Notes: generated by a model from the letters alone, not told the origin. 64,000 nucleotides of DNA from Parcubacteria group bacterium LiPW_15 (GCA_007375645.1 VMER01000001.1:5139-69138), one strand, 5' to 3'; shown: positions 1,619-63,502, counted from the stretch's first letter. Numbers and translations are program-made.

Positions 1619-1624
1619 GCAAAG

Positions 1625-2515
1625 ATGAAAAATATTTTTCCAAAACTAATTCTTGCGGCAACGAGCATTTTGATCGTCGGATTTATTATAAAAACATTGC
1701 CATCGCCGAATACGGCCGAAGCGGTGGGCACGAACATAAGTTCTTCGGCAGGCAAGTATTGGGCTTGGAACGATGTCGTCGGTTGGATAAATTTTTACGA
1801 CACTCAATCGATAATCGTAGGTCCATATGGATTGACGGGTTATGCATCCTCGTCTTTCGGCGAAGTGTCTTTGGACTGCAATACCACGCCTATCGGCAAT
1901 ATTTGCGGAACTTCTAATTATCAGGTTTTAAACGACGGTAACGGGAACCTCTCCGGCTGGGGTTGGAATGACCAAGCCGGCTGGATAAGCTTTTGCGGAG
2001 GTCAAAACACTTCTGCTTGTCCGGGGACGGTGGGTTATGAGGTTTTGGTAAGCGCGGGCACGGGAATTTTTACCGGTTGGGCCTGGAACGATCTTGTCGG
2101 CTGGATAAGCTTTAATTGTTCAAATGTGCCGGGAAGCTGCACTACTTCGCAATACGACGTGGAAACTACATGGGTCGCCACATCCACATCCGGATTTCTT
2201 GAATCCACCACCTACGACACGGGAATTGCCGGAGGAGCGCAAATAAATTCCGTGCTTTGGAAAGGTTCGCAGCCCGCCGGTACGTCGGTAGGTTTCCAAT
2301 TCGCGGGGTCAAATTCATCTAGCGGTCCATGGATATATACAGGTCCTTCCGGAACAAACAGCTACTATACCGTTGGTCCTTCAATCTCTTTGCCGGTTGA
2401 TTATGCCCTTCACAACAACCAGCGTTATTTCAGGTACAAGGTTCAGCTTGTTTCGGATCAGGCGCAAAGAAATACGCCCCGGGTGGATGATGTTATAGTC
2501 AATTGGAGCCCATAA
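1625..2515 (+). CDS. Secreted Trp-rich repeat protein
   Basis: N-terminal signal peptide. Three copies of W(A/G)WND..GWI(N/S)F spaced about 55 aa apart (nt near 1759, 1969, 2081). No recognised family. Confidence 0.5.
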   Translation: MKNIFPKLILAATSILIVGFIIKTLPSPNTAEAVGTNISSSAGKYWAWNDVVGWINFYDTQSIIVGPYGLTGYASSSFGEVSLDCNTTPIGNICGTSNYQVLNDGNGNLSGWGWNDQAGWISFCGGQNTSACPGTVGYEVLVSAGTGIFTGWAWNDLVGWISFNCSNVPGSCTTSQYDVETTWVATSTSGFLESTTYDTGIAGGAQINSVLWKGSQPAGTSVGFQFAGSNSSSGPWIYTGPSGTNSYYTVGPSISLPVDYALHNNQRYFRYKVQLVSDQAQRNTPRVDDVIVNWSP

Positions 2516-2520
2516 AATAC

Positions 2521-2614
2521 AGAATCCAGAATTTAGAATGTAGAATATTCGTAAAATACATTCAAATTCACAAATCCTAATGCCACATTCTACATTCCAC
2601 ATTCTACATTCTCG
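2521..2614. repeat. Imperfect inverted repeat (about 20 nt arms, 16/19 match) with tandem ACATTCY heptamers
   Basis: Left arm agaatccagaatttagaatgtagaatattcg versus right arm cacattctacattccacattctacattctcg. Spans the stop of the upstream gene and the first codons of ORF 2580. Confidence 0.5.
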
Positions 2615-3029
2615 CCATCAGGGCCAGGCCGCTCTCTCGCTCATCTTTCTTATCGGTGGTATTGCGCTTTTGGTTGCGGTGACGCTTTCTTTGGTGGCCA
2701 TAAACTTTTTGAATTCTACTTTTGCTTTTCAATCCGCCAACAAGGCAATGGCGCTTGCGACGAGCGGGGTGGAGGATGCGCTCGTGCAGCTTAATAGGAA
2801 TTCCAGCTTTTCGAATATCGGCGGTTATATGGTTCCGGCCGGCTGTACGATTGGAGCGGCGGATTGCGCGACTGTTTTGGTCACGCAAAGCTCTCCCGCC
2901 GCCAATCAGGCGACAATTGTGTCCACAGCGACATCTTTCGCTTCTCAGCGTAAAATTCAAGTAGTGGTTGCGATCGACCCCAATACGGGCCAACTGGATA
3001 TTGTGTCGTGGGAGGTGAAGGCGCTGTAG
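2580..3029 (+). CDS. Putative pilin-like membrane-anchored protein
   Basis: Hydrophobic N-terminal helix GQAALSLIFLIGGIALLVAVTLSLVA after a short leader, pilin-like architecture, position inside the pilus cluster. Lacks the canonical Glu5, so the call is weak. Start overlaps a repeat. Confidence 0.35.
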   Translation: MPHSTFHILHSRHQGQAALSLIFLIGGIALLVAVTLSLVAINFLNSTFAFQSANKAMALATSGVEDALVQLNRNSSFSNIGGYMVPAGCTIGAADCATVLVTQSSPAANQATIVSTATSFASQRKIQVVVAIDPNTGQLDIVSWEVKAL

Positions 3030-3039
3030 GTTCACAAAA

Positions 3040-4557
3040 ATGAAACAAAATTCGCTCGCAAAACTCCTATCTTTCCTTCGCGCCAAACCGATGATCGGCG
3101 GTCTTGAGATCGCCGATACGGCCTTACGGTTTGTGGTTTGGGACGGAAAAACCTTTCAGATGACCGGACTTAAACTTCTGCCGGGCGTGGTCGTTGGCGG
3201 ACAACTGAAGGACAAAGAGCGTTTTATCGCCGCGCTTAAAATGTTACATGCTCAGATTTTGGGCGAAAAGAAACACAGAACTAAAATAAACGCGATAATT
3301 TCTTTAAGTTCCATCGGCGTATATACGCAGGTTTTCACCCTGCCGTTCATCGAGGGGGAGAGCCTTGAAAAAGCGGTGCAGCTGAATATTCAAATGATTT
3401 CGCCTTTGGATTTTTCGGAGGCCTATTCCGGTTGGCAGTTCGCGAATAAAGACGAAGACAAGGTTCGCCTAGAGATCTTAAGCGCTTTCGCAAACAAAGG
3501 CGTCGTGGATGAATTTTCCGGAGCGCTTCATGTTGCCGGGTTTTTGGTGGTCGCAGTGGAATCCCGCGCCCTTTCTTTATCTCGGCTCCTCAAGGAGGCC
3601 GGAGCCGGTTTCGATCCGACGCGATCGGAGGTAGTTATGAGCGTTGATGGAAGCGGATTGGACTTTTTGATAATCCGCCATGGACAACTGCATTTTGATT
3701 ATTTTAATTCCTGGCACGATATACAGGGTGAATCCAAAGAAATTTCTCCGGATGCTTTTCGTGCTGCCGTTATCAGAAATCTACATCAGGTTTTAAATTT
3801 TTATAATTCTCATTGGCAAGAGCCCCTTGATGAAATAATTCTTGCAACCACCGGCTTTCACGATGAGGTTGTAAAAATAATTCAAGAAAACTTTTCCATA
3901 AAGATTCGGGATTTTGAGCTAAACACCAGCCAAACGGTTGCACCGGATTGGTTTGTAGCTTTGGGTTCTGCGGTGAGGGGATTGATCCCGCGCCGTAGCG
4001 ACAAAGAAATAAGCCTCTTGGGCGTAGATGCCCAGGAAGAATTCGGAAGAGAACAGGTATTGGGATTTCTGCGTTTTTGGCAGGTGTTAATGCCCGCGGC
4101 TGCGGCGATATTCATGATTGCATTTGCGGGCGTTTATTTCTCCCTTTCCAATATAGATGAGAATTTGGAGGCGGACGTGGCCTCGGTAAACCGTGGAGAG
4201 CAAGCACAAGAGATGAGGGGCATCGAATCTCAAATATCCGAATTTAATCGGGCCGTAACCTTGCTTTCCAGCGTAGAAAAAGCCGCTACCCTAAAGACCA
4301 TACTGCTCCAAAAAATTTCTGATTTTTCCGGCAGGACCGGCGTAATGATATCCCGGATATATTATCAGTCTGCGAATTCGCCGATAATGATTTCCGGTTC
4401 TGCCAGGTCGCCCGATGACCTTCTGGCGTTTAAAAAACTATTGGAAGGGGAGCCGACCGTCAAGAATATAGAATTGCCTCCTTCCTCGGTGCAGGTTTCT
4501 CCGCAAGGAGCGGTGTTCTCTATGAGTTTTTCCGAAGCTCAAGCCAGCCCGCGCTAA
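3040..4557 (+). CDS. pilM: Type IV pilus assembly protein PilM fused to a PilN/PilO-like membrane domain
   Basis: N-terminal 330 aa resemble the actin-like PilM fold (GGLEIADTALRFVVW..., conserved G-rich blocks). Single TM (FWQVLMPAAAAIFMIAFAGVYF) follows, then a 150 aa periplasmic tail typical of PilN. Confidence 0.6.
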   Translation: MKQNSLAKLLSFLRAKPMIGGLEIADTALRFVVWDGKTFQMTGLKLLPGVVVGGQLKDKERFIAALKMLHAQILGEKKHRTKINAIISLSSIGVYTQVFTLPFIEGESLEKAVQLNIQMISPLDFSEAYSGWQFANKDEDKVRLEILSAFANKGVVDEFSGALHVAGFLVVAVESRALSLSRLLKEAGAGFDPTRSEVVMSVDGSGLDFLIIRHGQLHFDYFNSWHDIQGESKEISPDAFRAAVIRNLHQVLNFYNSHWQEPLDEIILATTGFHDEVVKIIQENFSIKIRDFELNTSQTVAPDWFVALGSAVRGLIPRRSDKEISLLGVDAQEEFGREQVLGFLRFWQVLMPAAAAIFMIAFAGVYFSLSNIDENLEADVASVNRGEQAQEMRGIESQISEFNRAVTLLSSVEKAATLKTILLQKISDFSGRTGVMISRIYYQSANSPIMISGSARSPDDLLAFKKLLEGEPTVKNIELPPSSVQVSPQGAVFSMSFSEAQASPR

Positions 4558-43336: not shown

Positions 43337-44146
43337 GTGGTTAATCCATTTAAGAAATTTTTTGGTCGTGAGGTTAAAAAACGTGGAGGTTTTACTCTCA
43401 TTGAGATGGTGGTCTTTACCGCCATTTTTACGGTGACCATAATCGCGTTTATTTCCGTTCTCATTTCCATAACCCGCACCCAGGTTCGGCAGAGTGCGGT
43501 GGCGGAGGTAAATCAGCAGAGCCAATTTGTTCTCCAAGCCCTCCAATATTATGTAGAGCGTTCCAGCCTCATCGAAACCGCGTCCACCGAGGCCACTACC
43601 ACCATCACGCTTCGGATGACGAACACTCTTGAAGATCCGACTTTAGTTTTTGCGAGCGGCACGCAGATCTATTCCAAAGTCGGCACCGATCCGGCACAGG
43701 CTTTAACGAGCGGCAAGGTAACGGTCTCTAACTTCTCAATGTCAAAAAGAGTGAATGCTCCGGGTAAGGATTCGCTCGCGGTAACCTTTTCCATTTCCTA
43801 TAACACGGCAAATCCTCAACAGCAGTTTTCACAAGCGCTTCAATCGGCGGTCGCGCGCGTGAATGCCGCAACTTTTGATTCCGGAATTTTTCCGAATGCG
43901 GATAATACGCTGAAGCTTGGTGCAACTTCGCAAACTTGGCAGTCCATAAATGACGTTATTTATTTCAGCGGAGCGAAAGTCGGGATAGGCGGAACGCCAG
44001 CCGCACTTTTTCAGGTTCATAACGGCGATGTTTATATAGACAGTTCGAGCAACGGCTTGGTTCTTAAGTCATCGGGTGGAACATGCTACAGGCTGACCGT
44101 CACGAACGGCGGTTCGGCTACCACGACGGCTATCGCTTGTCCGTAG
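43337..44146 (+). CDS. Type IV pilin / pseudopilin (prepilin-type N-terminal domain)
   Basis: Canonical cleavage/methylation motif KRGGFTLIEMVVFTAIFTVTIIAFISVL (G|FTLIE). 269 aa Ser/Thr-rich globular part. Confidence 0.8.
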   Translation: MVNPFKKFFGREVKKRGGFTLIEMVVFTAIFTVTIIAFISVLISITRTQVRQSAVAEVNQQSQFVLQALQYYVERSSLIETASTEATTTITLRMTNTLEDPTLVFASGTQIYSKVGTDPAQALTSGKVTVSNFSMSKRVNAPGKDSLAVTFSISYNTANPQQQFSQALQSAVARVNAATFDSGIFPNADNTLKLGATSQTWQSINDVIYFSGAKVGIGGTPAALFQVHNGDVYIDSSSNGLVLKSSGGTCYRLTVTNGGSATTTAIACP

Positions 44147-44200
44147 GCCTCTAGCTTATCCCCAGTCGTTCGGAAGGCCGGTTTAGTATAATAAATACAA

Positions 44201-44740
44201 GTGATACAGATAGACAAAAAATATCTTATGTTTGGCGCGGTGGGGCTGGTTTTGATCGCCGCAATTTTGGTGGTTGTGTTGACAGGTAAAAAAAGCGAAC
44301 CGGAGATAGTGACACCGGGCGGGGCAACGGCTACGACGACTAACCAGTCAAACACCTATAAACCAGTTTCCGTGGATACGAAGGTTCCGGGTATTAATTC
44401 CCAGGTTGATTCCGGCGTGGCCAAGCCGACCGAGGTTAAGGCTGTCGGAGTCAACGATCTGAGCGCGAGAAGTTTTAATGTTGTGTTGAATGGCGATAAA
44501 GTTTCTCCGGAAAAAGTAATCATAAAATTATTCGATATCATCACCATAAATTTTTCCGCAGTGGATAAAACTTATGACTTTGTTCAGCCGGATAATGGAC
44601 TCAGTTGGACGGTTCCCAAAGGCGGCTCAAAAAGTTTGCAGTTTCAAGGTACTACTGCGGGGCAGTTTACCTTCTATTGCGTTTCTTGCGGCGGGCCGAG
44701 CAAAGGTCCGATAGGATATTTTGTGGTCGTTCCAAAATAA
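44201..44740 (+). CDS. Membrane-anchored hypothetical protein with beta-sandwich-like C-terminus
   Basis: N-terminal TM (LMFGAVGLVLIAAILVVVL), Thr-rich linker. C-terminus ends CVSCGGPSKGPIGYFVVVPK. Confidence 0.4.
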   Translation: MIQIDKKYLMFGAVGLVLIAAILVVVLTGKKSEPEIVTPGGATATTTNQSNTYKPVSVDTKVPGINSQVDSGVAKPTEVKAVGVNDLSARSFNVVLNGDKVSPEKVIIKLFDIITINFSAVDKTYDFVQPDNGLSWTVPKGGSKSLQFQGTTAGQFTFYCVSCGGPSKGPIGYFVVVPK

Positions 44741-44761
44741 TCAATAAAAATAAAAATATTT

Positions 44762-45238
44762 ATGAAAATGAAAAAGAGAAAGATAATTTTTTGGGTAGGT
44801 GTGGCGGCGGTGATTATAGTGGCGGCAGTTTTGGTTGTATTCTTTTGGGCGCGCGACGAAAAGGCTGAAATGAGATCTTCCGGCATCACTGCGGTTTATA
44901 TGACTACGGGGGACGTTTATTTCGGCAAAATGGATTGGTTTCCTTGGCCCCGGCTTCGAAATGTCTGGTACATTCAGCGCGGAGTTGACGCGAAACAACA
45001 GCCACAGGTAAGTCTCGCTCCGTTTAAAGATGTTTTCTGGACCCCGATAGATGAAATTCGCTTGAATCCGAAAGAGATAATTTTCTGGACAACAGTGAGG
45101 GATGGTTCAGAGATGGCGCAAGCGCTTAAAAATCCGGAAGCTTTCAAACAATCACAGCAAGCGGCTCTTCAGAATGCCGGTACGTCTCCGGAGTCCGAAT
45201 TCAAGGGTCCGAGCGGACAGCCGCCGGCAACTCCGTAA
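44762..45238 (+). CDS. Membrane-anchored hypothetical protein
   Basis: N-terminal TM (IIFWVGVAAVIIVAAVLVVFFWA). No motif. Confidence 0.4.
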   Translation: MKMKKRKIIFWVGVAAVIIVAAVLVVFFWARDEKAEMRSSGITAVYMTTGDVYFGKMDWFPWPRLRNVWYIQRGVDAKQQPQVSLAPFKDVFWTPIDEIRLNPKEIIFWTTVRDGSEMAQALKNPEAFKQSQQAALQNAGTSPESEFKGPSGQPPATP

Positions 45239-45258
45239 TCTAAAAATTAAACAAAAAA

Positions 45259-48093
45259 ATGATGAGGAATAAAACAAATGTTATCAGGATGGCCGGTTTG
45301 TTTTTCCTTGTCTTGGGAGTGGCTCTTGCGGCGCAAAGTTTTGCCATAACCGGTCCCAGCGCCGGTGCCGGAGTCGGCAGTGGTTTGATAGATGTTGAAC
45401 CCACGGGGACAGGCAATCTTAGCGTTGGCGCAACCGCCGCGGATACAAGTACAAAATTTCAAATTACCGGCACAACCGCCAATAGTAGCGCCTTTGGTTT
45501 GAAAGTTTGGCCCTCAAGCGGTTCGGTTAATTTTCAGGTCAGAAATGACGGCGTTGTCTCTATTACTTCAACCACCTATATCGGCGGCAGCATATGTTTC
45601 GGAGCCATCGGGGCCACCGACTGCGTGTCCTCTTGGAGCGGCGTTGGCGGGGGAGTGACTTCCACTCCGGCCGGATATGTGACCCCCGGATATTTTAATT
45701 CTATCGCGGGAACGGGCGGGAATTATAGTTTTCCGGCAGCGCTTTCTATCGGAACCTCCACTGCTCCGTCGGGCGGAGTTTTGTTCGTGAATGGCAATAT
45801 TGGAATAGGGACGGCAGCGCCTGGGGTAAAAGTAGAAATTTTCGGCACTGATAATGCTCTTAGATTAACTTACGACGCTACTCACTATGCTACCCTCGCT
45901 GCCGGAAATTCAGGTAAGCTCACGGCATCATTTTCCGGTTCGGGATCCACTGGCGGGTATCTGGATATAACCCAGGCTCATACCTACTACGGATTTTTAA
46001 TTCATAGCGGCGCAAGCTGGGGCGGACAGGGGTTGATCGGTACAAATAAAGATTTAGGGATCTCTACCGCAACAACCACTCAAGATATAGTTTTTTACGG
46101 TAATAATTTTAGCGCTAATGAATACGTGAGAATAAAGGGCACGGGTAATGTCGGTATTGCGACAACAACACCGGGAAGTAAGCTAACCGTTGCCGGAGCG
46201 ATCTATTCCTCCACCGGCGGTTTCAAATTCCCCGATGGTACTACCCAGACGACTGCCGCTGGCGCAGGGACAAGCTACTGGACCCTTTCCGGTACCGGTT
46301 TATATCCGACTTCTACCGCGTATCAAGTTGGCATCGGAACGACAGAGCCGCACTATCCGCTTGAGGTTTACGGAACCTCAAATAAATTAGGCATAACCTA
46401 TAGCTACAGCGCCTTGGCGGGAGACTCAACCGGCGGAGAACTGTACGCGAGTAGCAACGGGGACCTGCATATCAATGCTAAGAGAGCGACCACCCTTATT
46501 GAAAACAGAAATATTTTATTATCCGAGGCGGGGGGCAATGTTGGAATAGGCACTTCGACTCCCGGGAGCCCCCTGACTGTTGTAGGGGCAATTTATTCCT
46601 CCACCGGCGGTTTCAAGTTCCCCGACGGCACCACCCAGACGACTGCCGCAACCGGCGGCGGAGGGACCAACTACTTCACTCTTTCCGGGACCAGCCTTTA
46701 TCCTACGTCCACCGCATATGAATTGGCTGTCGGTACCGCATCGGTAGACACAAATTACGCTATCACTACAGCCGGAGGCGGCATAAAGGCGGAATCAACG
46801 AGCCAACCGGCTGGATATTTTAATTCTTCTTCCGGCTACGGTCTTATCGTGAATACCGGAAAAGTTGGAGTTGGAACAACTACGCCTGTCGGAATGTTCA
46901 CCGTAGCTACTTCTACCGGTGCCGGATTCTTCACCGTTCTTCCAAACGGGAATGTTGGAGTCGGAACCGCAAATCCAACTCAAAAGTTCCACGTAATTGG
47001 AGCTGCCTATGCGGATTCAAATATGCAATCTCCTACCGGGTACTTTAATGTTCTTCGCCCGCTAACCACCGGAGGAGATCTTAGGTTTTTGGATAGCACA
47101 AGCACCGAAAGGATGAGGCTGGCTTCCACCGGCAATCTTGGAGTTGGAACGTCAACGCCGAGTGCAAGATTGGATGTGATGGGAAACATACTCGCCGGAG
47201 ATCGAGCCTCAACCGCTGATGGTTATCTGGATTTTGGAAGTAATGGCGCCGGATCGGCTAGGATTGCTAGGACCGGAATGGGGGCAACCGATTCGTCTTT
47301 GGTATTATCCACCACTTGGGGCACTCTTCAAGAAAGGATGAGAATTACCGGGTTGGGCAAAGTTGGTATTGCCACCACAACTCCCGGCAGCCAGCTAACC
47401 GTTGCCGGCGAAATATATTCCGCGACCGGCGGCTTCAAGTTTCCGGATGGAACAACGCAGACGACGGCGGCGACCGGCGGCAGTGGAACTAATTATTTTA
47501 CTCTTTCCGGAACAAACCTGTATCCGACCTCTACCGCGTATAAAGTTGGCATAGCTACCACTACTCCCGGTTATCCGCTAACGGTGGATGGAACGTCTAT
47601 GTTTACCGGGACCATGACCATCGGTTTAACCGGTGCAGGCAAATTAAACGTCGGAACAGTTGACCCGCCGTATACGATAAACGGCATGCAATACGCGACT
47701 TATATGCCCGGTATGACCGGACAAAAAGAAGAAACTACCGGGGAAGTTAACGTTCGGTGCCAGTCAGACTCCAGGTGCGAATATGTTATTGATTTTAAGA
47801 GCGTCGAGAGGGGGAGCGATCTTTGGCTTTTTGCGAAGACGACCAACTTGAAGGCTCAGATGAATAAACTGACCGTGCTTCTGACGCCATCTTTCAACGG
47901 AAAAGTTTGGTATGAAAAAGACGCGAAAAATATGGTTTTGAAAATATTTGGCGTCCCCTCCAAAGCCTTGGCGAAGGAGGGCCGTTCCGATCTTTCCGTT
48001 TCGTATCGTCTTACCGCGCCTCGCTTTGATTCGGCGAATTGGCTAAATACCAGGAACGAGCCAGGTGTCAACGGTTTCGTAATTAACGACTAA
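45259..48093 (+). CDS. Large secreted repeat protein (fiber/adhesin-like)
   Basis: Signal peptide. Three copies of about 55-aa unit (L/K)LTVAGAIYSSTGGFKFPDGTTQTTAA.G..T.Y.TLSGT.LYPTSTAY at nt about 46195, 46584 and 47404. Many (N/K)VG(I/V)GT(T/S)TP short repeats. Gly/Thr/Ser-rich. Confidence 0.6.
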   Translation: MMRNKTNVIRMAGLFFLVLGVALAAQSFAITGPSAGAGVGSGLIDVEPTGTGNLSVGATAADTSTKFQITGTTANSSAFGLKVWPSSGSVNFQVRNDGVVSITSTTYIGGSICFGAIGATDCVSSWSGVGGGVTSTPAGYVTPGYFNSIAGTGGNYSFPAALSIGTSTAPSGGVLFVNGNIGIGTAAPGVKVEIFGTDNALRLTYDATHYATLAAGNSGKLTASFSGSGSTGGYLDITQAHTYYGFLIHSGASWGGQGLIGTNKDLGISTATTTQDIVFYGNNFSANEYVRIKGTGNVGIATTTPGSKLTVAGAIYSSTGGFKFPDGTTQTTAAGAGTSYWTLSGTGLYPTSTAYQVGIGTTEPHYPLEVYGTSNKLGITYSYSALAGDSTGGELYASSNGDLHINAKRATTLIENRNILLSEAGGNVGIGTSTPGSPLTVVGAIYSSTGGFKFPDGTTQTTAATGGGGTNYFTLSGTSLYPTSTAYELAVGTASVDTNYAITTAGGGIKAESTSQPAGYFNSSSGYGLIVNTGKVGVGTTTPVGMFTVATSTGAGFFTVLPNGNVGVGTANPTQKFHVIGAAYADSNMQSPTGYFNVLRPLTTGGDLRFLDSTSTERMRLASTGNLGVGTSTPSARLDVMGNILAGDRASTADGYLDFGSNGAGSARIARTGMGATDSSLVLSTTWGTLQERMRITGLGKVGIATTTPGSQLTVAGEIYSATGGFKFPDGTTQTTAATGGSGTNYFTLSGTNLYPTSTAYKVGIATTTPGYPLTVDGTSMFTGTMTIGLTGAGKLNVGTVDPPYTINGMQYATYMPGMTGQKEETTGEVNVRCQSDSRCEYVIDFKSVERGSDLWLFAKTTNLKAQMNKLTVLLTPSFNGKVWYEKDAKNMVLKIFGVPSKALAKEGRSDLSVSYRLTAPRFDSANWLNTRNEPGVNGFVIND

Positions 48094-48103
48094 ATAAAGA
48101 CGG

Positions 48104-50236
48104 ATGAACATTTCTCCGAAAATAAAAATAATTTTTGGTACAACGATCGTCTTGTTGGTCCTTGCCGGAATCGGAATTTATTCGGCAAAGATAAATAAGA
48201 ACGGAGGTTCGGAGGAAATAGTTTACGAAAGAGGGAAACCGGTGATTCCTCACGGGATCCAGACTTACGAGTTTCTGCAGTCTTCGCGCGTCAGTCCGCG
48301 CATTCGGTTTCTAACCGTTGATCCTCTGGACGCGAAACCCGGAGAAACACAAAAGTTTAGGGTTGCGGTTGAGGGAAGTTTGCCGGTTGTTTCCGTCACC
48401 TTGGATATAGAAGACGATGCCGGGATCTCAAGTCTTGCACTCAAGAAAGACTTGAGCGGGGAAATGCCGGCATCTAGATATTCGATCGGAAAGGACAACG
48501 ATCTTACTTTTATTCCACAGAAAGAGAATCCTTCTTCGACGATCTTTCATTGGGTCGGGGAAAGGGTTGTCAAAAACAAAAGTGATTCAAAGTTCTCTAT
48601 CGGCATTACCGCGAAAGAATCGATTCCTCTTAAAGATGTGGCCGGCAATCGGCTGCCCAAGACGCCCGCAGCCGGTAATTTTGTGCGCATTGGGGTTGCA
48701 AACCTGGAGTGGAATAAAGTCTGTGGGATACCTTTCGGGGGCGATTGGAGTTCTTCCGAATCTTGTGCGGTTTCATTTCCGGACGGGGTAGATGAAGGGA
48801 GCGCTCATATCCAGAACTATTCCACTGTTGTCTTGGACGCAGATTTCGGAGTGAACGCAGATAAGACAATTATCTTTCAACCGATCGGGATAGTCGCCGT
48901 GAACACCAAGGCGAAGATAGTTCAGGGCAATATTTGGAAATTAAAATTAGACTCGGATGGGACGAAAGAGGTGATCTCGACGAATTCTCCGGGTTCCAGT
49001 TACAAGAGACGTTTTGAGTTCAAGGGAGGCTTTAAAACGGCATTTACGGATATAAATAATAAAAAGAAGGAGTTTGTGCTATCCCAGGGGCGGCAAGTGT
49101 TCCAAATAGCTTCCGCAGCCAAGACTGGGCCGAAAATAATTCAGGCGGATATAAATCCCTTGGACGTCAAAGTCGGCGACACCCAAAAATTATCTTTGGT
49201 TATACAGAGTCAGATCGAGATAGCTTCTGTCGTTGCGAGGATAGAAACCGACAAAGAAATCATTGAGCTTCCGCTTTCTTTGGATGGCCCAACTCCAAAA
49301 GCCAGTCTGCTCGAACCGAGATACGGCGTCGATGCCCATGGTTATCTGGCGTTTTTGAACAAAATTGATAACACCGGTTCAAATTCAAAATACGCCGTTC
49401 CGGGTGTTAAATCCGCCGAAGCCGCTTTGGAACCGAAAAGGTTTACATATAGTGGCTCTTGGATTGTGAGGGACACGCACTCCACTAAATATCATACAAG
49501 CTTTGTCGTAAAAGATATTAACGGGGCCGATAATTCTATTTTGATGGCCTGGTCCGATCCGTGCGGGACATTTGCGGGCGGGAATAGGGCGCTCAATACG
49601 TGTTCGTTTAGCGATGTGGATGGCGCGGATAATGGAAATCTCACCATAAATACTTCTCAGACAGTAACTCTGCAAAACGGCGCCACCTTGGCTTTCAATT
49701 CCGGAAGAACTCTAACGGTAAATGGAGCGATAGCTATTGCGGCCGGTGCTCAAATAACCCAAACCAATCTTTGGCTCATGGATATAGATGGCGATCTTTA
49801 TACTCCTTCCCTCACCCTTGCGGCTGCGGCGACGGCGCCGGCCAATAGCGGCAGGGCATACACTCGTTATACCTCTCCTTTGGATTGTTACGATCTGAAT
49901 AGCAGCGCTTTTCCAGATTCTAGTACTTGGAGCGATCGGGATCGCGGAGATTATTCTTTCGATTTTAATTGTGACGGCAACGATACTCCGGCTTTGGAGA
50001 GTGACGGCATTTCTTATCAAAATTGCAGAACCACAATACAGTATCCATTTTGTGCCGCGAATGCGTTCTCGGTTACCAATTGGTGTTCCGAGGGAATTAC
50101 TAACGGCGGGATTTGCACTAACGACAGGGTGGGTTGCGGCGAAGTCGGAAACATGGTCGTTTTAAATCAAGGGTATGCTGTTTGCGACGGCAGTTGTTCC
50201 GCCCAGGTCTTAGAGGTATATCAATCCTGTAATTAA
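48104..50236 (+). CDS. Large secreted protein with Cys-rich C-terminus
   Basis: N-terminal TM/signal anchor, 710 aa. The last about 150 aa contain more than 15 Cys (CYDLNSSAF...CDGNDTP...CRTTIQYPFCAANAF...CSEGITNGGICTND...CGEVG...CDGSCSAQ). Confidence 0.55.
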   Translation: MNISPKIKIIFGTTIVLLVLAGIGIYSAKINKNGGSEEIVYERGKPVIPHGIQTYEFLQSSRVSPRIRFLTVDPLDAKPGETQKFRVAVEGSLPVVSVTLDIEDDAGISSLALKKDLSGEMPASRYSIGKDNDLTFIPQKENPSSTIFHWVGERVVKNKSDSKFSIGITAKESIPLKDVAGNRLPKTPAAGNFVRIGVANLEWNKVCGIPFGGDWSSSESCAVSFPDGVDEGSAHIQNYSTVVLDADFGVNADKTIIFQPIGIVAVNTKAKIVQGNIWKLKLDSDGTKEVISTNSPGSSYKRRFEFKGGFKTAFTDINNKKKEFVLSQGRQVFQIASAAKTGPKIIQADINPLDVKVGDTQKLSLVIQSQIEIASVVARIETDKEIIELPLSLDGPTPKASLLEPRYGVDAHGYLAFLNKIDNTGSNSKYAVPGVKSAEAALEPKRFTYSGSWIVRDTHSTKYHTSFVVKDINGADNSILMAWSDPCGTFAGGNRALNTCSFSDVDGADNGNLTINTSQTVTLQNGATLAFNSGRTLTVNGAIAIAAGAQITQTNLWLMDIDGDLYTPSLTLAAAATAPANSGRAYTRYTSPLDCYDLNSSAFPDSSTWSDRDRGDYSFDFNCDGNDTPALESDGISYQNCRTTIQYPFCAANAFSVTNWCSEGITNGGICTNDRVGCGEVGNMVVLNQGYAVCDGSCSAQVLEVYQSCN

Positions 50237-50269
50237 AAAATAAGCGCGATAAATGAGACAACTAAAAAA

Positions 50270-50290
50270 GCCCCTCTTCCCTGGAGGGGC
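50270..50290. terminator. Bidirectional terminator hairpin
   Basis: gcccctc-ttccct-ggaggggc preceded by AAAAAA (a T-run on the minus strand), serving the minus gene 50308..50649. Confidence 0.6.
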
Positions 50291-50307
50291 TCTGTCTTTC
50301 GTTCGGG

Positions 50308-50649
50308 CTATTTGATCTTTGAGCCTCCCGTCAGCGTCTCGACATCTCCGATGTGTATTTCGGTGAATATTCTCGCTTCTATTCCTCCGTTGCCGTTATG
50401 ATCTTGCGTCGGAACGACCGCTTCAATGTGCCTCGCCTCACTGGCCGTCATGGGAAGCAGTCCGACCTTTCCCACCGTGGCAATCGCGATAGTCTGGACA
50501 TCGTCACGTACGACAATGAGGAACTCATTGCCTGGTTTCAGGGAGAAATCTCCGGCTACGAAAAGAATATTCCATACTCCGTGCAGGATGTCGTAGCCGA
50601 GGCGGACAGATTCTCCCTCGAATTGCACTGCGAGTTTGAAAACGCTCAT
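50308..50649 (-). CDS. Hypothetical protein
   Basis: 113 aa lone minus-strand ORF between two plus-strand blocks. Has its own terminator. No motif. Confidence 0.45.
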   Translation of the reverse strand: MSVFKLAVQFEGESVRLGYDILHGVWNILFVAGDFSLKPGNEFLIVVRDDVQTIAIATVGKVGLLPMTASEARHIEAVVPTQDHNGNGGIEARIFTEIHIGDVETLTGGSKIK

Positions 50650-60764: not shown

Positions 60765-61157
60765 ATGGAAAACGAAAAAATAGAAAAATTAGTAACCGAA
60801 GCGGAAGAAACCAGACTCATAGAGGCAGCCAAACTGCATGCCGAGTCTGTGGAGGGAAAAGAAATGAAGGGTGAAGAACTAATGAAGAAGGCAATTCAAT
60901 CCGTAACTCAAACCGTGCCGGTTCCGGAGCAGGCTGAGCCAAATTCCATTCAGAATCCTTTGACCGATTACACCGCGCAAGAACCGGAAGAAGTAAAAAG
61001 GAAGATCGAAGATCTTCTGCAGATCGCGGCGACCGATGGAATAGTCAGGGCTACGGAGGCGGCAAAACACGCCTCACCTTTCATCCTGGATGCTTTTCAT
61101 GACGCTTTAGCGGCAAAAGTCTATCCATACCTTCGGGAGAAAGGATTATTCAAATAA
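60765..61157 (+). CDS. Hypothetical acidic protein
   Basis: 130 aa, precedes the coupling ATPase with a 1-nt overlap. Confidence 0.4.
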   Translation: MENEKIEKLVTEAEETRLIEAAKLHAESVEGKEMKGEELMKKAIQSVTQTVPVPEQAEPNSIQNPLTDYTAQEPEEVKRKIEDLLQIAATDGIVRATEAAKHASPFILDAFHDALAAKVYPYLREKGLFK

Positions 61158-63502
61158 TGCTCACAGCCCTTTTTGTTTTTTTGGTGGCCGCAATACTCTC
61201 CGGGATCCTGTTTTTTGTTATCCGGTCCATTCATCGCAAGCGAACCATAAAAGATTCGCTGGAATACTCGCTTTTTGTGGTTCGTCTGCCAAAAAACCAA
61301 AAAACCGAGGGCCAGGACCCTAAGGCGGAGATAAATAAGTTCGAAGAATTTTTAAGCAGTTTACAAGGCCTAAAAAAACCGATGACTTTTGAGGTGGCGG
61401 TTCCGCATATCGGCGAAGAAATATCTTTTTATATTTCCGTGCCGAACGAGTTTACGGAAATGGCCAGACGGCAAATTCAGGGAATTTGGACCAAAGCAAG
61501 TATAGAAGAGGCGAGAGAAGATTATAATATTTTCAATTCCACCGGAGCCGCCTCCGCCGTATATTTGGCGCAAAAAGAGAATTTTTCTTTGCCCATAAAA
61601 ACTTATGAAGGCTTCGGCGCGGATACAGCCGCCGCGATATTCGGCGGTTTTACGAAGATGAGCGAGATAGGCGAAGGCGCTTCGCTTCAGATAGTTTTGC
61701 GTCCGGCCAAAAGCGAAGCCAGAAAAACTTTGAATTCGCATCTGGGTTCGTTCAAGAAGGGTTGGACCCGCAAGCAGATATTCGCGAGCGGTTTTTCCGC
61801 TGCCATAAAATCTTCAAGCCCCAAAGATGACAAAGAAAAAGAGCCTAAAGTCTTGGATGAAGAAGCGATAAAAATGTTGCAGGCGAAAACGAGCAAGCCC
61901 TTGTTCGAGGCCAATGTTCGCATTGCCGCAAGCGCTCCGATCCAGGTCCTCTCCGATAACATTTTGGGCGGCATAGCCGCAGGTTTCGAGCAATTTTCCT
62001 TGCCGCAGGGCAACCAGTTCAAAATAGTAAAGCCGAAAAATCCAGGCAACCTGATATTCGATTTTGTTTTTCGGGCCTTTAATGAAAACCAGAAAATAAT
62101 TTTGAATTCCGAAGAGATCGCAAGTTTTTATCATTTTCCGACTTCCGCCACGGAAACCCCGCGAATGAACTGGCTGAAATCCAAGGAAGCCCCTCCGCCG
62201 TCCGAACTCCCTTCGGAAGGAACTTTGATCGGGGAGAGCATTTTCCGCGGGGAAAGAAAGCCTATACGCATAACCGACGAAGACCGCCGCCGCCATATTT
62301 ATATAGTTGGTCAAACCGGAACCGGTAAAACTGTTTTTATAAACAATTGTGTAATTCAGGATATTGCCCGGGGCAAGGGCCTCGCAATAATCGATCCGCA
62401 TGGAGACCTGGCGGAAGCGGCTCTTGCGAATGTTCCTCCCGAAAGGATGAACGACGTTATTTATTTCAGTCCCGCGGATCTCCAGAAACCCCTTGGACTC
62501 AATATGCTCGAATACAACTTCGATCGGCCGGAGGAAAAGACTTTTATCGTGAACGAGATGCAGAGCATTTTTAATAAGCTTTTCAGCCAGGAAACCATGG
62601 GCCCGATGTTCGAACAATATATGCGGAACGCCCTTCTTCTCCTTATGGAAGACATGGTGAACGAACCGGCGACCCTCATCGAAGTTCCGCGTGTTTTTAC
62701 CGATCCCGAATTTCGCAAGCGAAAACTCGCGCGCATCAAAAATCCCACAGTCATAGATTTCTGGGAGAAAGAGGCCGCGAAGGCTGGCGGAGACGCGTCG
62801 CTTGCGAACATGACGCCTTATATAACCTCCAAGTTCAACAACTTTATTTCCAATGACTATATGCGGCCGATAATCGGTCAGGCCAAATCCTCCTTCAATT
62901 TTCGGGAGGTGATGGATTCCGGAAAGATACTCCTCATCAATCTTTCGAAGGGTAAGATCGGCGATATTAACGCTAATCTTTTGGGCATGGTGATAACCGG
63001 CAAACTCCTGATGGCCGCGCTCTCGCGCGTGGATATCGCCGACCAGAATGCCCGCAAGGATTTTAATTTATATATAGACGAATTCCAGAATTTCACGACC
63101 GATAGTATTTCCACCATTCTTTCGGAAGCGCGCAAATACCGTTTGAATCTGACGATCGCGCACCAATTCATCGCTCAGCTTACCGAAAAAATAAGGGATT
63201 CTGTTTTCGGCAATGTCGGCGCGCAGATAGTTTTCCGGGTTGGCGTGCAGGACGCGGAGTTTTTGGTGAAGCAATTCGAACCGGTCTTTGACGTTAACGA
63301 TCTTATCAATATCCCGAATCTTAATGCGCATGCCAAAATTCTCATAAACGGCCATCCGGCAAACCCGTTTAATTTGAGGGAAGGTTTTCCGCCAAAAGGG
63401 AGCTTGGAGGTGACTGAGAAACTTAAGGAGATGTCGCGTTCCCAATACGGAATGGAACGTAATACGGTGGAAGAGGAGATATATAGACGCTTACGGACAT
63501 GA
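61157..63502 (+). CDS. Type IV secretion/conjugation coupling-protein-like ATPase (VirD4/TraD/TraG family, AAA-like)
   Basis: N-terminal TM. Walker A HIYIVGQTGTGKT, Walker B LYIDEFQNF. C-terminal region similar to TraD-type coupling proteins. Confidence 0.6.
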   Translation: MLTALFVFLVAAILSGILFFVIRSIHRKRTIKDSLEYSLFVVRLPKNQKTEGQDPKAEINKFEEFLSSLQGLKKPMTFEVAVPHIGEEISFYISVPNEFTEMARRQIQGIWTKASIEEAREDYNIFNSTGAASAVYLAQKENFSLPIKTYEGFGADTAAAIFGGFTKMSEIGEGASLQIVLRPAKSEARKTLNSHLGSFKKGWTRKQIFASGFSAAIKSSSPKDDKEKEPKVLDEEAIKMLQAKTSKPLFEANVRIAASAPIQVLSDNILGGIAAGFEQFSLPQGNQFKIVKPKNPGNLIFDFVFRAFNENQKIILNSEEIASFYHFPTSATETPRMNWLKSKEAPPPSELPSEGTLIGESIFRGERKPIRITDEDRRRHIYIVGQTGTGKTVFINNCVIQDIARGKGLAIIDPHGDLAEAALANVPPERMNDVIYFSPADLQKPLGLNMLEYNFDRPEEKTFIVNEMQSIFNKLFSQETMGPMFEQYMRNALLLLMEDMVNEPATLIEVPRVFTDPEFRKRKLARIKNPTVIDFWEKEAAKAGGDASLANMTPYITSKFNNFISNDYMRPIIGQAKSSFNFREVMDSGKILLINLSKGKIGDINANLLGMVITGKLLMAALSRVDIADQNARKDFNLYIDEFQNFTTDSISTILSEARKYRLNLTIAHQFIAQLTEKIRDSVFGNVGAQIVFRVGVQDAEFLVKQFEPVFDVNDLINIPNLNAHAKILINGHPANPFNLREGFPPKGSLEVTEKLKEMSRSQYGMERNTVEEEIYRRLRT

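What the first reader, a model, noticed from the sequence alone, without database searches (positions are those of the whole stretch)
43337..50236. Second pilin locus followed by two giant secreted proteins with internal repeats and a Cys-rich module
A canonical G|FTLIE pilin (269 aa) is followed by two small membrane-anchored proteins. Next comes a 944-aa Gly/Thr/Ser-rich protein with three roughly 55-aa IYSSTGGFKFPDGTTQTTAA...LYPTSTAY repeats (DNA repeats near 46195, 46584 and 47404) and many GxGT(T/S)TP fibre-like motifs. Last is a 710-aa protein ending in a domain of about 150 aa with more than 15 cysteines. This looks like a pilus/fibre-tip adhesin system. The repeat architecture resembles tail-fibre or S-layer-type proteins and may mediate host attachment.
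Basis: partly seen in the sequence, partly recalled or inferred. Interest (0 to 1): 0.6.

Follow-up and report, generated by a model that had tools for sequence, protein, structure and literature searches.

The report
Pilin-linked tail-fibre-like adhesin operon
An ultra-small groundwater bacterium (Parcubacteria) carries a conserved five-gene operon that pairs a type IV pilin with a long, phage-tail-fibre-like secreted protein, most likely a device for grabbing host cells, and related genomes fuse the pilin directly to the fibre's tip.

Summary
The five ORFs exist as described: 269, 179, 158, 944 and 710 aa, + strand, gaps of 10-54 nt. The Cys count was overstated: 14 in total, 10 in the last 116 aa.

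The 944-aa protein is homologous to the Bdellovibrio fibre Bd2133 (PDB 8OND, E 1e-12) and to phage tail-fibre PHROGs (E 1.5e-17). It has a signal peptide, a conserved N-domain, a mosaic shaft with 8 GNVGIGTxxP motifs and three ~70-aa repeats. Its 165-aa C-terminal tip belongs to an unmodelled family of about 1,240 clusters, nearly all Patescibacteria.

The link to the pilin is real at the genomic level.
- In loci seeded with the pilin, the 179-aa homologue follows in 36 of 38 cases, then the 158-aa homologue and a fibre.
- At least four protein clusters fuse this pilin family to the tip domain (P0220: E 2e-52 to the pilin, 4e-47 to the tip).
- At family level, the pilin's C-terminus is a short fibre repeat plus a variable two-Cys knob.
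- Homologues of the 710-aa protein follow tip-bearing fibres only (40/82 vs 0/12).

Best reading: a pilin-coupled, trimeric tail-fibre-type adhesin system for host attachment. It works like CofB/CofJ and the Bdellovibrio MAT fibres. Physical docking, trimerisation and the ligand are all inferred. I found no phase-variable tracts, S-layer domains or phage context.

The parts
43337..44146 (+). Modular type IV pilin, 269 aa. Leader aa 1-18 ends in GG|FTLIE. Pilin body runs to about aa 185 (...ARVNAATFDS). A degenerate fibre-repeat 'stub' covers aa 186-229 (43892-44023). A two-Cys knob covers aa 230-269 (44024-44143).
   Evidence: N_methyl PF07963 at its cut-off. Weak N-terminal hits to ComGF, GspI and GspJ. 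Family alignment with invariant E23. Stub positions of the pilin-family HMM hit fibre shafts at E 1e-6 to 1e-15. The fibre-repeat HMM hits several pilin homologues but not the window's own copy. The knob is the fastest-evolving part: 48% identity against 91-98% for the body.
44201..44740 (+). Membrane-anchored cupredoxin-fold protein, 179 aa, with an invariant C160-x-x-C163-G-G-P and no His ligands. Conserved accessory gene that always follows the pilin.
   Evidence: Cupredoxin_1 E 1e-4. Family profile vs PDB: nitrosocyanin 1IBY E 2e-5, nitrite reductase 2DV6 E 6e-5, CupA 2MRY E 7e-4. Directly downstream of the pilin in 36 of 38 unfused loci.
44762..45238 (+). Membrane-anchored 158-aa protein of an uncharacterised family (core SAVYLTxGDIYFGKLxWFPxP). 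Conserved accessory gene between the cupredoxin-like gene and the fibre gene.
   Evidence: No Pfam, NCBIfam or PDB match. Conserved position. Core 91% identical in the closest relative.
45259..48093 (+). Secreted tail-fibre/MAT-like fibre protein, 944 aa. Signal peptide aa 1-28 (45259-45342). Conserved N-domain aa 29-160 (45343-45738). Mosaic shaft aa 161-779 (45739-47595). C-terminal tip aa 780-944 (47596-48090).
   Evidence: PHROG tail fibre E 1.5e-17 and 8.6e-12. PDB 8OND Bd2133 E 1e-12. At least 459 homologues, mostly Patescibacteria. Block-wise mosaic identity to P0002/P0003.
46126..46344 (+). Long shaft repeat 1 (aa 290-362): GNVGIATTTPGSKLTVAGAIYSSTGGFKFPDGTTQTTAA...LYPTSTAY.
   Evidence: This stretch aligns with Bd2133 residues just before its tip.
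46516..46734 (+). Long shaft repeat 2 (aa 420-492).
47338..47556 (+). Long shaft repeat 3 (aa 694-766).
47596..48090 (+). Tip domain, 165 aa. Beta-sandwich with short helices and one Cys pair (C834, C840). Member of an unmodelled family found almost only in Patescibacteria.
   Evidence: AlphaFold2 pLDDT 88.3, pTM 0.78. No PDB match by sequence profile or by Foldseek (best E 0.15). Best viral match is a Siphoviridae tail protein, E 8.9e-6, TM 0.48. 1,242 representative clusters, 1,009 of them at E<=1e-30. Present in 160 species genomes.
48104..50236 (+). Membrane-anchored 710-aa protein. TM helix aa 5-33. Two tandem modules of Ig-like beta-sandwich plus short-strand solenoid-like region (aa 53-302 and 331-575). 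Cys-rich tail aa 590-710 (49871-50233; 10 Cys).
   Evidence: AlphaFold2 pLDDT 71; the tail is not modelled. Only generic Ig/arrestin-like matches. No Pfam family in 17 members. Core-like genes lie downstream of 40/82 tip-bearing fibres and 0/12 other fibres, Fisher p 0.001.
50267..50293 (.). GC-rich hairpin (10-bp stem) 31 nt after the last stop codon, between convergent genes. Probable bidirectional terminator that closes the operon.
   Evidence: The number of terminator-like sites in the region is no higher than in shuffles, so only its position is suggestive.

Best explanation
This is a vertically inherited five-gene operon of Parcubacteria/Paceibacteria. The window matches 'Parcubacteria group bacterium LiPW_15'. 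I propose it builds a pilin-coupled, tail-fibre-type adhesin.

Shown:
- The 944-aa protein is a homologue of trimeric beta-helical fibres (Bdellovibrio MAT fibre Bd2133 and phage tail fibres).
- It has an N-terminal hydrophobic signal-like sequence, a conserved N-domain, a recombining mosaic shaft and a lineage-specific C-terminal tip.
- The pilin is a modular type IV pilin. In its family, the C-terminus is a short piece of the same kind of fibre, capped by a fast-evolving two-Cys knob.
- The pilin, the two bitopic membrane proteins and the fibre are almost always encoded together.
- In several lineages the pilin carries the fibre repeats and the tip domain itself.

Inferred:
- Because the fibre repeat is a three-chain fold, three copies of the pilin come together. 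This resembles the trimeric tip/initiator minor pilins CofB and TcpB of type IVb pili.
- The separately exported fibre trimer is attached to this pilin-based structure or to the membrane partners through its near-invariant N-domain, with the 179-aa and 158-aa proteins acting in assembly or docking.
- The tip, projected tens of nanometres from the cell, binds a surface component of the host organism.
- The 710-aa protein, which tracks the tip domain rather than the pilin, acts as a tip-specific partner (chaperone, retention factor or co-adhesin).
For: Homology of the fibre:
- PDB 8OND E 1e-12.
- Tail-fibre PHROGs E 1.5e-17 and 8.6e-12.
- Distant relatives carry Peptidase_S74 (PF13884) or are named 'tail fiber domain-containing'.
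- Bd2133 is an experimentally shown trimeric surface fibre (PMC10769870).

Operon:
- Gaps of 54, 21, 20 and 10 nt, with a hairpin after the last gene.

Synteny:
- The same five genes sit next to proS-mreBCD in L003 and L001.
- Full or partial clusters occur in many tip-seeded loci.
- The reciprocal pilin-seeded scan gives the 179-aa homologue downstream in 36/38 cases and a fibre within 4 kb in 22/29.

Rosetta-stone fusions:
- L021, L077, P0186, P0220, P0237 and P0240.
- P0220 matches the window pilin at E 2e-52 and the window tip at E 4e-47.
- P0084 has a pilin leader followed by fibre repeats.
- The fused loci lack the 179-aa and 158-aa genes.

Pilin stub equals fibre:
-.
- P0177 carries the same stub behind a Sec signal peptide.

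Conservation pattern:
- Against the closest relative, the fibre N-domain is 96% identical, the shaft 56%, the tip 73%, the pilin body 91-98% and the knob 48%.
- All 10 fibres with this N-domain have the pilin upstream.

Precedents:
- CofB forms a trimeric initiator complex at the pilus tip and anchors the operon-encoded secreted protein CofJ by its N-terminus (PMC6048534).
- Modular pilins are widespread (PMC8179133).
- Type IV pili drive episymbiosis in cultivated Patescibacteria (abstract of PMC12206443).
Against: - No pilus assembly ATPase, platform or prepilin peptidase gene lies in or next to the cluster. The Walker motif of PilB-type ATPases occurs in 1 of about 125 related loci and nowhere in the window. 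Polymerisation therefore depends on machinery encoded elsewhere.
- The window's own pilin does not score with the fibre-repeat HMM, and its BLASTP similarity to the fibre is not significant (E 0.72). The stub argument rests on the family.
- The pilin knob varies fast while the fibre N-domain is nearly invariant, which argues against knob-to-N-domain docking.
- Most tip-bearing fibres in Patescibacteria (48 of 71 with enough upstream DNA) have no pilin of this family nearby, so the tip works without it.
- The co-occurrence statistics are not corrected for phylogeny.
- Trimerisation, export, surface location and the ligand were not, and could not be, tested here.
Confidence: 0.55

Rival explanations
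1. Free-standing cell-surface fibre. The 944-aa protein is displayed on the cell body like Bdellovibrio MAT fibres. It is held by the 179-aa, 158-aa or 710-aa membrane proteins. The pilin is a second, independent adhesin (a pilin-borne mini-fibre with its own knob) that is only co-regulated with it.
For: - The pilin already carries its own stub and variable knob.
- Three membrane-anchored proteins are available as anchors.
- Most tip-bearing fibres have no pilin of this family nearby.
- No pilus machinery lies in the cluster.
- How MAT fibres are anchored is itself unknown (PMC10769870).
Against: - Gene order from pilin to fibre is near-obligate.
- Fusions put the tip on the pilin.
- Those fused loci have lost the 179-aa and 158-aa genes, as expected if those genes serve to join two separate parts.
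Confidence: 0.27
2. The 'pilin' is never polymerised. Its class III signal and hydrophobic helix serve only as a membrane anchor for a trimeric stalk, forming a pseudopilin-like base on which the fibre stands.
For: - There are no other pilin genes and no assembly genes in the operon.
- A three-chain fibre repeat directly follows the pilin body.
Against: - Glu5 and the prepilin cleavage motif are strictly conserved. These are features needed for processing and filament assembly, not for simple anchoring.
- Trimeric minor pilins at pilus tips are an established solution.
Confidence: 0.1
3. Prophage remnant or domesticated phage tail-fibre module unrelated to host attachment, for example a decoy or a tailocin part.
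For: - Tail-fibre PHROG hits.
- Tip similarity to phage tail proteins.
- Mosaic, recombining shaft.
Against: - No other phage-like gene lies in the cluster or its flanks, which encode an aminopeptidase, a glycosyltransferase, ProRS and MreBCD.
- The chromosomal position is conserved across species.
- The family is spread through Patescibacteria.
Confidence: 0.04
4. S-layer or envelope structural protein rather than an adhesin.
For: - Gly/Thr/Ser-rich repetitive secreted protein.
- From background knowledge, CPR cells have surface layers.
Against: - No SLH or S-layer family hit.
- Specific homology to fibre proteins.
- Distal-end diversification typical of receptor-binding proteins.
Confidence: 0.04

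Closest known systems
Bdellovibrio bacteriovorus MAT (mosaic adhesive trimer) fibres, e.g. Bd2133 (PDB 8OND; Caulton et al. 2024, PMC10769870)
   Same: - Significant sequence homology over the shaft, including GNVGIGTxxPxxKLxVxG and GGFKFPDGTxQTTAA.
- Signal peptide, then a conserved N-domain, a long repeat shaft and an exchangeable tip.
- The family has both S74-ending and non-S74 members (L109/P0082 carries PF13884).
- Used by a bacterium that lives on other bacteria.
   Different: - The N-domain shows no similarity to the one Bdellovibrio homologue tested.
- The tip is a different domain, specific to Patescibacteria.
- The gene sits in a fixed operon with a pilin and three membrane proteins, and pilin-fibre fusions exist. 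This was not reported for MATs, whose anchor is unknown.
- The organism is monoderm-like (background knowledge).
Phage tail fibres / receptor-binding proteins (phrog_9942, phrog_18345; S74 intramolecular-chaperone fibres)
   Same: - Profile homology of the shaft.
- The tip model's only significant structural neighbours are phage tail proteins.
- Block-wise mosaicism.
   Different: - No virion genes nearby.
- Exported by a signal peptide.
- This copy has no S74 domain.
- Chromosomal and vertically conserved.
ETEC CofB-CofJ and V. cholerae TcpB-TcpF (type IVb tip minor pilin plus operon-encoded secreted partner; PMC6048534, PMC9565799)
   Same: - A large modular minor pilin whose C-terminal modules follow a three-fold logic.
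- A secreted protein encoded in the same operon.
- Proposed docking through the secreted protein's N-terminus.
   Different: - No sequence similarity was detected.
- The partner here is a roughly 900-aa fibre, not a globular protein.
- No major pilin or assembly genes in the operon.
- Trimerisation and binding are inferred only.
Modular type IV pilins (S. sanguinis PilB/PilC; Raynaud et al. 2021, PMC8179133)
   Same: - A pilin module with a functional module grafted onto its C-terminus.
- The window's other pilin (383-1618) has the PilC-like pilin plus ConA-like lectin architecture.
   Different: - The grafted module is a tail-fibre repeat plus knob or, in the fusions, the full tip.
- None of these modules has a domain model in the databases.
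Cupredoxin-fold proteins (nitrosocyanin 1IBY, CupA 2MRY), for the 179-aa protein only
   Same: - Fold-level sequence similarity.
- The Cys aligns with the copper-ligand Cys.
- Membrane-anchored, like CupA.
   Different: - No conserved His or Met ligands.
- It has an invariant CxxCGGP instead.
- No link between cupredoxins and pili or fibres is known.

Membership tests
Type IV pilin (class III signal peptide proteins) | Short positively charged leader ending in Gly, then a hydrophobic helix of about 20 aa with Glu at mature position 5 | tested here: met
   KKRGG|FTLIEMVVFTAIFTVTIIAF. PF07963 scores 21.2 bits, equal to its cut-off. E23 is invariant in 10 homologues.
Type IV pilin (class III signal peptide proteins) | Processing by a prepilin peptidase and polymerisation by PilB/PilC-type machinery | not testable with these tools
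   None of these genes lies in the window or in the related loci. The rest of the 481-kb contig was not available.
Modular pilins (Raynaud et al. 2021) | Pilin module followed by an extra C-terminal module that is not specific to pilus biology | tested here: met
   The stub and knob follow ...AATFDS. The stub positions are homologous to fibre shafts at family level. Relatives carry 2-3 fibre repeats or the tip domain.
Bdellovibrio MAT fibres | Beta-helical repeat shaft homologous to Bd2133/Bd3182 | tested here: met
   phmmer vs PDB: 8OND E 1e-12, best stretch aa 285-374.
Bdellovibrio MAT fibres | The conserved beta-rich N-terminal domain of about 130 aa shared by all 21 MATs (PMC10769870) | tested here: inconclusive
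   The window protein has its own conserved N-domain of about 130 aa. It shows no similarity to the N-terminus of the one Bdellovibrio homologue at hand, P0034. No structure comparison was possible.
Bdellovibrio MAT fibres | Homotrimeric fibre | not testable with these tools
   Only single-chain prediction was available.
Bdellovibrio MAT fibres | Family with exchangeable tips, either S74 or non-S74 | tested here: met
   The same N-domain occurs with a PF13884 (S74) end in L109/P0082 and with the Patescibacteria tip here. Shaft blocks are exchanged.
Phage tail fibre | Profile homology to tail-fibre families | tested here: met
   phrog_9942 E 1.5e-17 and phrog_18345 E 8.6e-12.
Phage tail fibre | Encoded within a phage or tailocin gene set | tested here: not met
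   The flanks encode housekeeping genes and the position is conserved between species.
CofB/TcpB-type tip pilin with secreted partner | Secreted partner encoded in the same operon | tested here: met
   The fibre gene, with an N-terminal hydrophobic signal-like sequence, lies three genes downstream in a tight operon and is conserved there.
CofB/TcpB-type tip pilin with secreted partner | Trimeric pilin that binds the partner's N-terminus | not testable with these tools
   Inference only, from the three-chain nature of the fibre repeat.
S-layer / SLH proteins | SLH or another S-layer domain | tested here: not met
   No such family in the Pfam or NCBIfam scans of any of the five proteins.
Cupredoxins (179-aa protein) | Cupredoxin fold with His/Cys/His/Met copper ligands | tested here: inconclusive
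   Fold-level matches at E 2e-5 to 7e-4, with the ligand Cys aligned. No conserved His or Met; the invariant motif is CxxCGGP.

The most novel reading that the evidence does not exclude
Parcubacteria have wired a phage-type trimeric receptor-binding fibre onto a type IV pilus. A trimer of modular pilins at the filament tip continues directly into a beta-helical fibre (in the fused lineages) or docks a separately exported fibre (in the split lineages, with two dedicated membrane assembly factors). The result would be an extendable 'harpoon' that determines which host cell the epibiont catches. The split and fused forms would also answer, by analogy, what anchors the MAT fibres of Bdellovibrio.
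Probability: 0.35. Interest if true: 0.8.

Novelty: new variant of a known kind. Interest (0 to 1): 0.62.

Why it matters
Host recognition is the central unknown in the biology of Patescibacteria. They make up a large share of bacterial diversity and appear to live attached to other cells. Type IV pili are known to matter in the few cultivated Saccharibacteria, but what gives them specificity is unclear.

This locus offers a concrete, widely conserved candidate in the uncultivated Parcubacteria.
- A tail-fibre-type receptor-binding protein is genetically coupled to a pilin and, in some lineages, covalently fused to it.
- Its tip domain family (about 1,240 clusters), its partner family (the 710-aa protein) and two accessory families all lack any annotation.
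- It links three lines of work that have been separate: phage receptor-binding fibres, the MAT fibres of predatory Bdellovibrio (whose cell anchor is still unknown, with a pilus interplay only suggested), and trimeric tip pilins that dock secreted colonisation factors.
- Tip and knob diversity could serve as a marker for predicting host range from metagenomes.

Tried and rejected
Rejected.
- **S-layer homology:** no hit. Rejected.
- **Prophage:** no phage context. Rejected.
- **DGR-type diversification:** the relative L001 has two bAvd/23S_rRNA_IVP-like genes in the cluster, but the window has none. I saw no reverse transcriptase in the ORFs scanned and did not pursue this.
- **Direct pilin-versus-fibre similarity in the window:** BLASTP E 0.72 and no repeat-HMM hit. 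It is significant only at family level.
- **MAT N-domain identity:** not found.
- **Known fold for the 710-aa protein:** only generic two-Ig-domain matches. The Cys-rich tail was not modelled. One homologue gives a weak MopE metal-motif hit.
- **The 158-aa protein:** no match anywhere.
- **Exact look-up of the fibre protein:** not on record. The source was identified through the 710-aa protein.
- **Broad alignments A1 and A5** were too divergent for locus scans. Narrower ones, A2 and A6, worked.
- **Literature searches** for a Patescibacteria pilin plus tail-fibre link found nothing. The library is partial, so this is not proof of absence.
- **Rfam and tRNA scans:** nothing inside the cluster.

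Full report
**Observation**

The region holds five co-directional ORFs on the + strand:

| Coordinates | Length |
|---|---|
| 43337-44146 | 269 aa |
| 44201-44740 | 179 aa |
| 44762-45238 | 158 aa |
| 45259-48093 | 944 aa |
| 48104-50236 | 710 aa |

- The gaps between them are 54, 21, 20 and 10 nt.
- A 10-bp GC-rich hairpin at 50267-50293 follows the last stop, in front of a convergent ORF.
- The flanking genes are housekeeping: M17 aminopeptidase, tRNA-Glu and a GT2 glycosyltransferase upstream; ProRS, MreB, MreC/D and PBP2 downstream.
- The 710-aa protein is 100% identical to 'LiPW15_53' of Parcubacteria group bacterium LiPW_15, on a 481,644-bp contig.

There are 14 Cys in total and 10 in the last 116 residues, not more than 15. 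No phase-variable tracts are present.

**The fibre protein**

Pfam and NCBIfam give nothing useful, but other evidence is clear.
- PHROGs give tail-fibre families: phrog_9942 at E 1.5e-17 and phrog_18345 at E 8.6e-12.
- The only PDB relative is Bd2133 of Bdellovibrio (8OND, E 1e-12). The alignment runs over GNVGIATTTPGSKLTVAGAIYSSTGGFKFPDGTTQTTAA.
- Bd2133 is one of the 'mosaic adhesive trimer' (MAT) fibres. These are signal-peptide proteins with a conserved N-domain, a long trimeric beta-helical shaft and exchangeable tips, some ending in an S74 chaperone-protease. They are displayed on the predator and bind prey glycans (PMC10769870).

The window protein has the same logic:

| Part | Residues | Notes |
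|---|---|---|
| Signal peptide | to ...AAQSFA\|ITGPSAG | cleavage site inferred from sequence |
| N-domain | aa 29-160 | one Cys pair |
| Shaft | aa 161-779 | eight GNVGIGT-type motifs, three ~70-aa repeats |
| Tip | aa 780-944 | 165 aa |

- Against its 54-60% identical relatives the protein is a block mosaic. Residues 51-150 are 96-100% identical and 301-500 are 72-98% identical, but 201-300 and 551-700 are only 4-36% identical.
- At least 459 homologues were found. Those with names are mostly Patescibacteria, plus Bdellovibrio, Elusimicrobia and Armatimonadota, and several carry PF13884.

**The tip**

- About half of the best homologues share the C-terminal 165 aa.
- A 41-sequence alignment gives a confident AlphaFold2 model: pLDDT 88.3, pTM 0.78, a beta-sandwich with three short helices.
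- It has no relative in the PDB by profile or by Foldseek (best E 0.15, TM at most 0.25).
- Against predicted viral structures, the only significant hits are phage tail proteins. The best is E 8.9e-6 at TM 0.48, so this is a resemblance and not an assignment.
- A profile search of 1.84 billion representatives finds 1,242 clusters, 1,009 of them at E<=1e-30. The family is therefore sharply bounded, and it has no Pfam model.
- A scan of one genome per species finds the tip in 160 genomes. Nearly all of the 80 best are labelled Patescibacteria of many classes. A few TPA bins are labelled Gammaproteobacteria or archaea, which I regard as doubtful labels.
- In Microgenomates the tip lies inside giant proteins of 2,000-4,000 aa.

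**The pilin and its link to the fibre**

The 269-aa protein has the class III signal KKRGG|FTLIE. Pfam N_methyl scores at its cut-off, and Glu5 is invariant.

Three independent lines tie it to the fibre.

1. *Synteny.*
   - The same five genes lie upstream of proS-mreB in two relatives.
   - Full or partial clusters recur in tip-seeded loci.
   - In the reciprocal scan, 43 metagenome loci seeded with the pilin alone show the 179-aa homologue directly downstream in 36 of 38 unfused cases with enough DNA.
   - The 158-aa homologue follows that, and a repeat-bearing fibre lies within 4 kb in 22 of 29.
2. *Fusions.*
   - L021, L077, P0186, P0220, P0237 and P0240 are single proteins made of this pilin family plus the tip domain.
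   - P0220 matches the window pilin at E 2e-52 (37% identity over aa 15-265) and the window tip at E 4e-47 (47% identity).
   - P0084 has a pilin leader followed by fibre repeats.
   - The two fused loci examined lack the 179-aa and 158-aa genes.
3. *The pilin's own C-terminus.*
   - After the conserved ...AATFDS junction, the family carries one to three fibre repeats.
   - The corresponding positions of the pilin HMM hit fibre shafts just before their tips at E 1e-6 to 1e-15.
   - P0177 places the same stub behind a Sec signal peptide.
   - In the window's copy the repeat is degenerate (AKVGIGGTPAALFQV). It is not significant on its own.
   - It is followed by a 40-aa two-Cys knob found only in this pilin family.

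**The accessory proteins**

- *179-aa protein.* It has a transmembrane anchor plus a cupredoxin-fold domain (nitrosocyanin E 2e-5, CupA E 7e-4). CxxCGGP is invariant and there are no His ligands.
- *158-aa protein.* It has a transmembrane anchor plus a conserved domain with no known relative.
- *710-aa protein.*
   - It has a TM helix, then two tandem modules of Ig-like sandwich plus solenoid-like region, then an unmodelled Cys-rich tail.
   - Seventeen family members have no Pfam domain.
   - Genes with its core lie within 5 kb downstream of 40 of 82 tip-bearing fibres and 0 of 12 other fibres, Fisher p 0.001.
   - One also follows the pilin-tip fusion in L021.
   - It therefore tracks the tip, whereas the 179-aa and 158-aa proteins track the pilin.

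**Conservation pattern**

Identity to the closest cluster, L085:

| Part | Identity |
|---|---|
| Pilin body | 91-98% |
| Pilin knob | 48% |
| Fibre N-domain | 96% |
| Fibre shaft | 56% |
| Fibre tip | 73% |
| 158-aa core | 91% |

- The distal parts diversify and the proximal parts are fixed, as in receptor-binding fibres.
- All 10 fibres that carry this N-domain have the pilin upstream, against 13 of 61 without it (p 2.5e-6).
- This statistic is confounded by phylogeny and by the reach of a single-sequence search.

**Mechanism**

Shown:
- a MAT/tail-fibre homologue with a lineage-specific tip;
- a modular pilin with a fibre-type C-terminus;
- an almost obligate operon;
- pilin-tip fusions.

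Inferred:
- Because the fibre repeat is a three-chain fold, the pilin should act as a trimer.
- The established precedent is the type IVb tip/initiator minor pilin CofB. It trimerises at the pilus tip and anchors the operon-encoded secreted protein CofJ through CofJ's N-terminus (PMC6048534). TcpB-TcpF is analogous (titles and abstracts).
- I therefore propose that the exported fibre trimer is joined, through its invariant N-domain and with the help of the 179-aa and 158-aa proteins, to a pilin-based structure. The tip would bind the host surface, and the 710-aa protein would be a tip-specific partner.
- The fast-evolving knob argues that the knob itself is exposed rather than being the docking site.

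Confidence by step:

| Claim | Confidence |
|---|---|
| Fibre identity | about 0.85 |
| Functional coupling to the pilin | about 0.8 |
| Physical display on a pilus | about 0.4 |

**Against the proposal**

- No pilus assembly genes lie in or near the cluster.
- The start of the window does hold a second pilin locus: a pilin-lectin fusion at 383-1618 and a pilin-like ORF at 2580-3029.
- Most tip-bearing fibres lack this pilin nearby.
- The main rival is an independently anchored surface fibre that is merely co-regulated with a pilin-borne mini-adhesin.

**Comparison and novelty**

- The system works like MAT fibres, phage receptor-binding fibres and CofB/CofJ. It is a homologue of the first two only in the shaft.
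- It is not a phage element and not an S-layer protein.
- I found no paper linking Patescibacteria pilins to tail-fibre-like proteins in the searchable library. The MAT paper notes that the anchor of MAT fibres is unknown and that an interplay with type IV pili 'may be of interest'.
- I class this as a new variant of known kinds, with four unannotated protein families attached to it.

Noticed in passing
window 383-4557: The 'first' pilin locus. ORF 383-1618 is a 411-aa modular pilin (G|QSLIE leader; N_methyl E 4e-4) fused to a ConA-like lectin domain (Laminin_G_3 E 1e-28). This is the same architecture as S. sanguinis PilC. It is followed by a 296-aa Trp-rich secreted protein (1625-2515), a 149-aa pilin-like ORF (2580-3029) and a 505-aa protein with no Pfam hit (3040-4557).
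   Followed up: partly
window 61157-63502: 781-aa VirD4/TraG-type coupling protein (T4SS-DNA_transf E 4e-7, TrwB_AAD_bind, TraG-D_C). It may belong to the conjugation-like type IV secretion system recently described for Patescibacteria.
   Followed up: no
L001 9123-9464 and 12447-12788 (Liptonbacteria nzgw430, JAHFLJ010000004.1): Two 113-aa genes of the 23S_rRNA_IVP/bAvd four-helix-bundle family are inserted into the orthologous cluster, one before the 158-aa gene and one after the fibre gene. The window has neither. It is unclear whether they mark mobile insertions or a diversity-generating element.
   Followed up: no
L027, L034, L038, L075, L082, L083 (Microgenomates/Roizmanbacteria/Gottesmanbacteria loci): The same tip domain sits inside giant proteins of 2,800-4,000 aa, about 400-500 residues before their C-terminus. 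It is followed by small ~200-aa ORFs that match only aa 326-400 of the 710-aa protein. The 'tip' may therefore not always be terminal.
   Followed up: partly
window 47596-48090 vs 43337-44146: The tip ends with SYRLTAPRFDSANWLN and the pilin body ends with ARVNAATFDSGIFPN. These are similar 'R-x-x-A-x-x-FDS' junction motifs at the ends of two otherwise unrelated domains. The BLASTP E-values are 0.59-3.7, so the match is not significant.
   Followed up: no
N-termini of fibre homologues (e.g. P0143, P0145, P0151, P0153, P0159, P0182, P0223): Right after the signal-peptide hydrophobic core, nearly all fibres share a short motif, [AV]-[FW]-x-G-P-(x)2-4-(P)P-x-G. In the window it reads SFAITGPSAGAG. 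A conserved mature N-terminus could be a docking peptide like that of CofJ. This was not tested.
   Followed up: no
window 50308-50649 (- strand): A 113-aa ORF convergent with the operon has same-position, same-strand counterparts in L001 (127 aa) and L003 (126 aa). Function unknown.
   Followed up: no
window 44201-44740: All five proteins of the cluster carry paired cysteines in their extracytoplasmic parts. The cupredoxin-like protein has an invariant CxxC. A thiol-disulfide role in maturing its neighbours is conceivable but untested.
   Followed up: no
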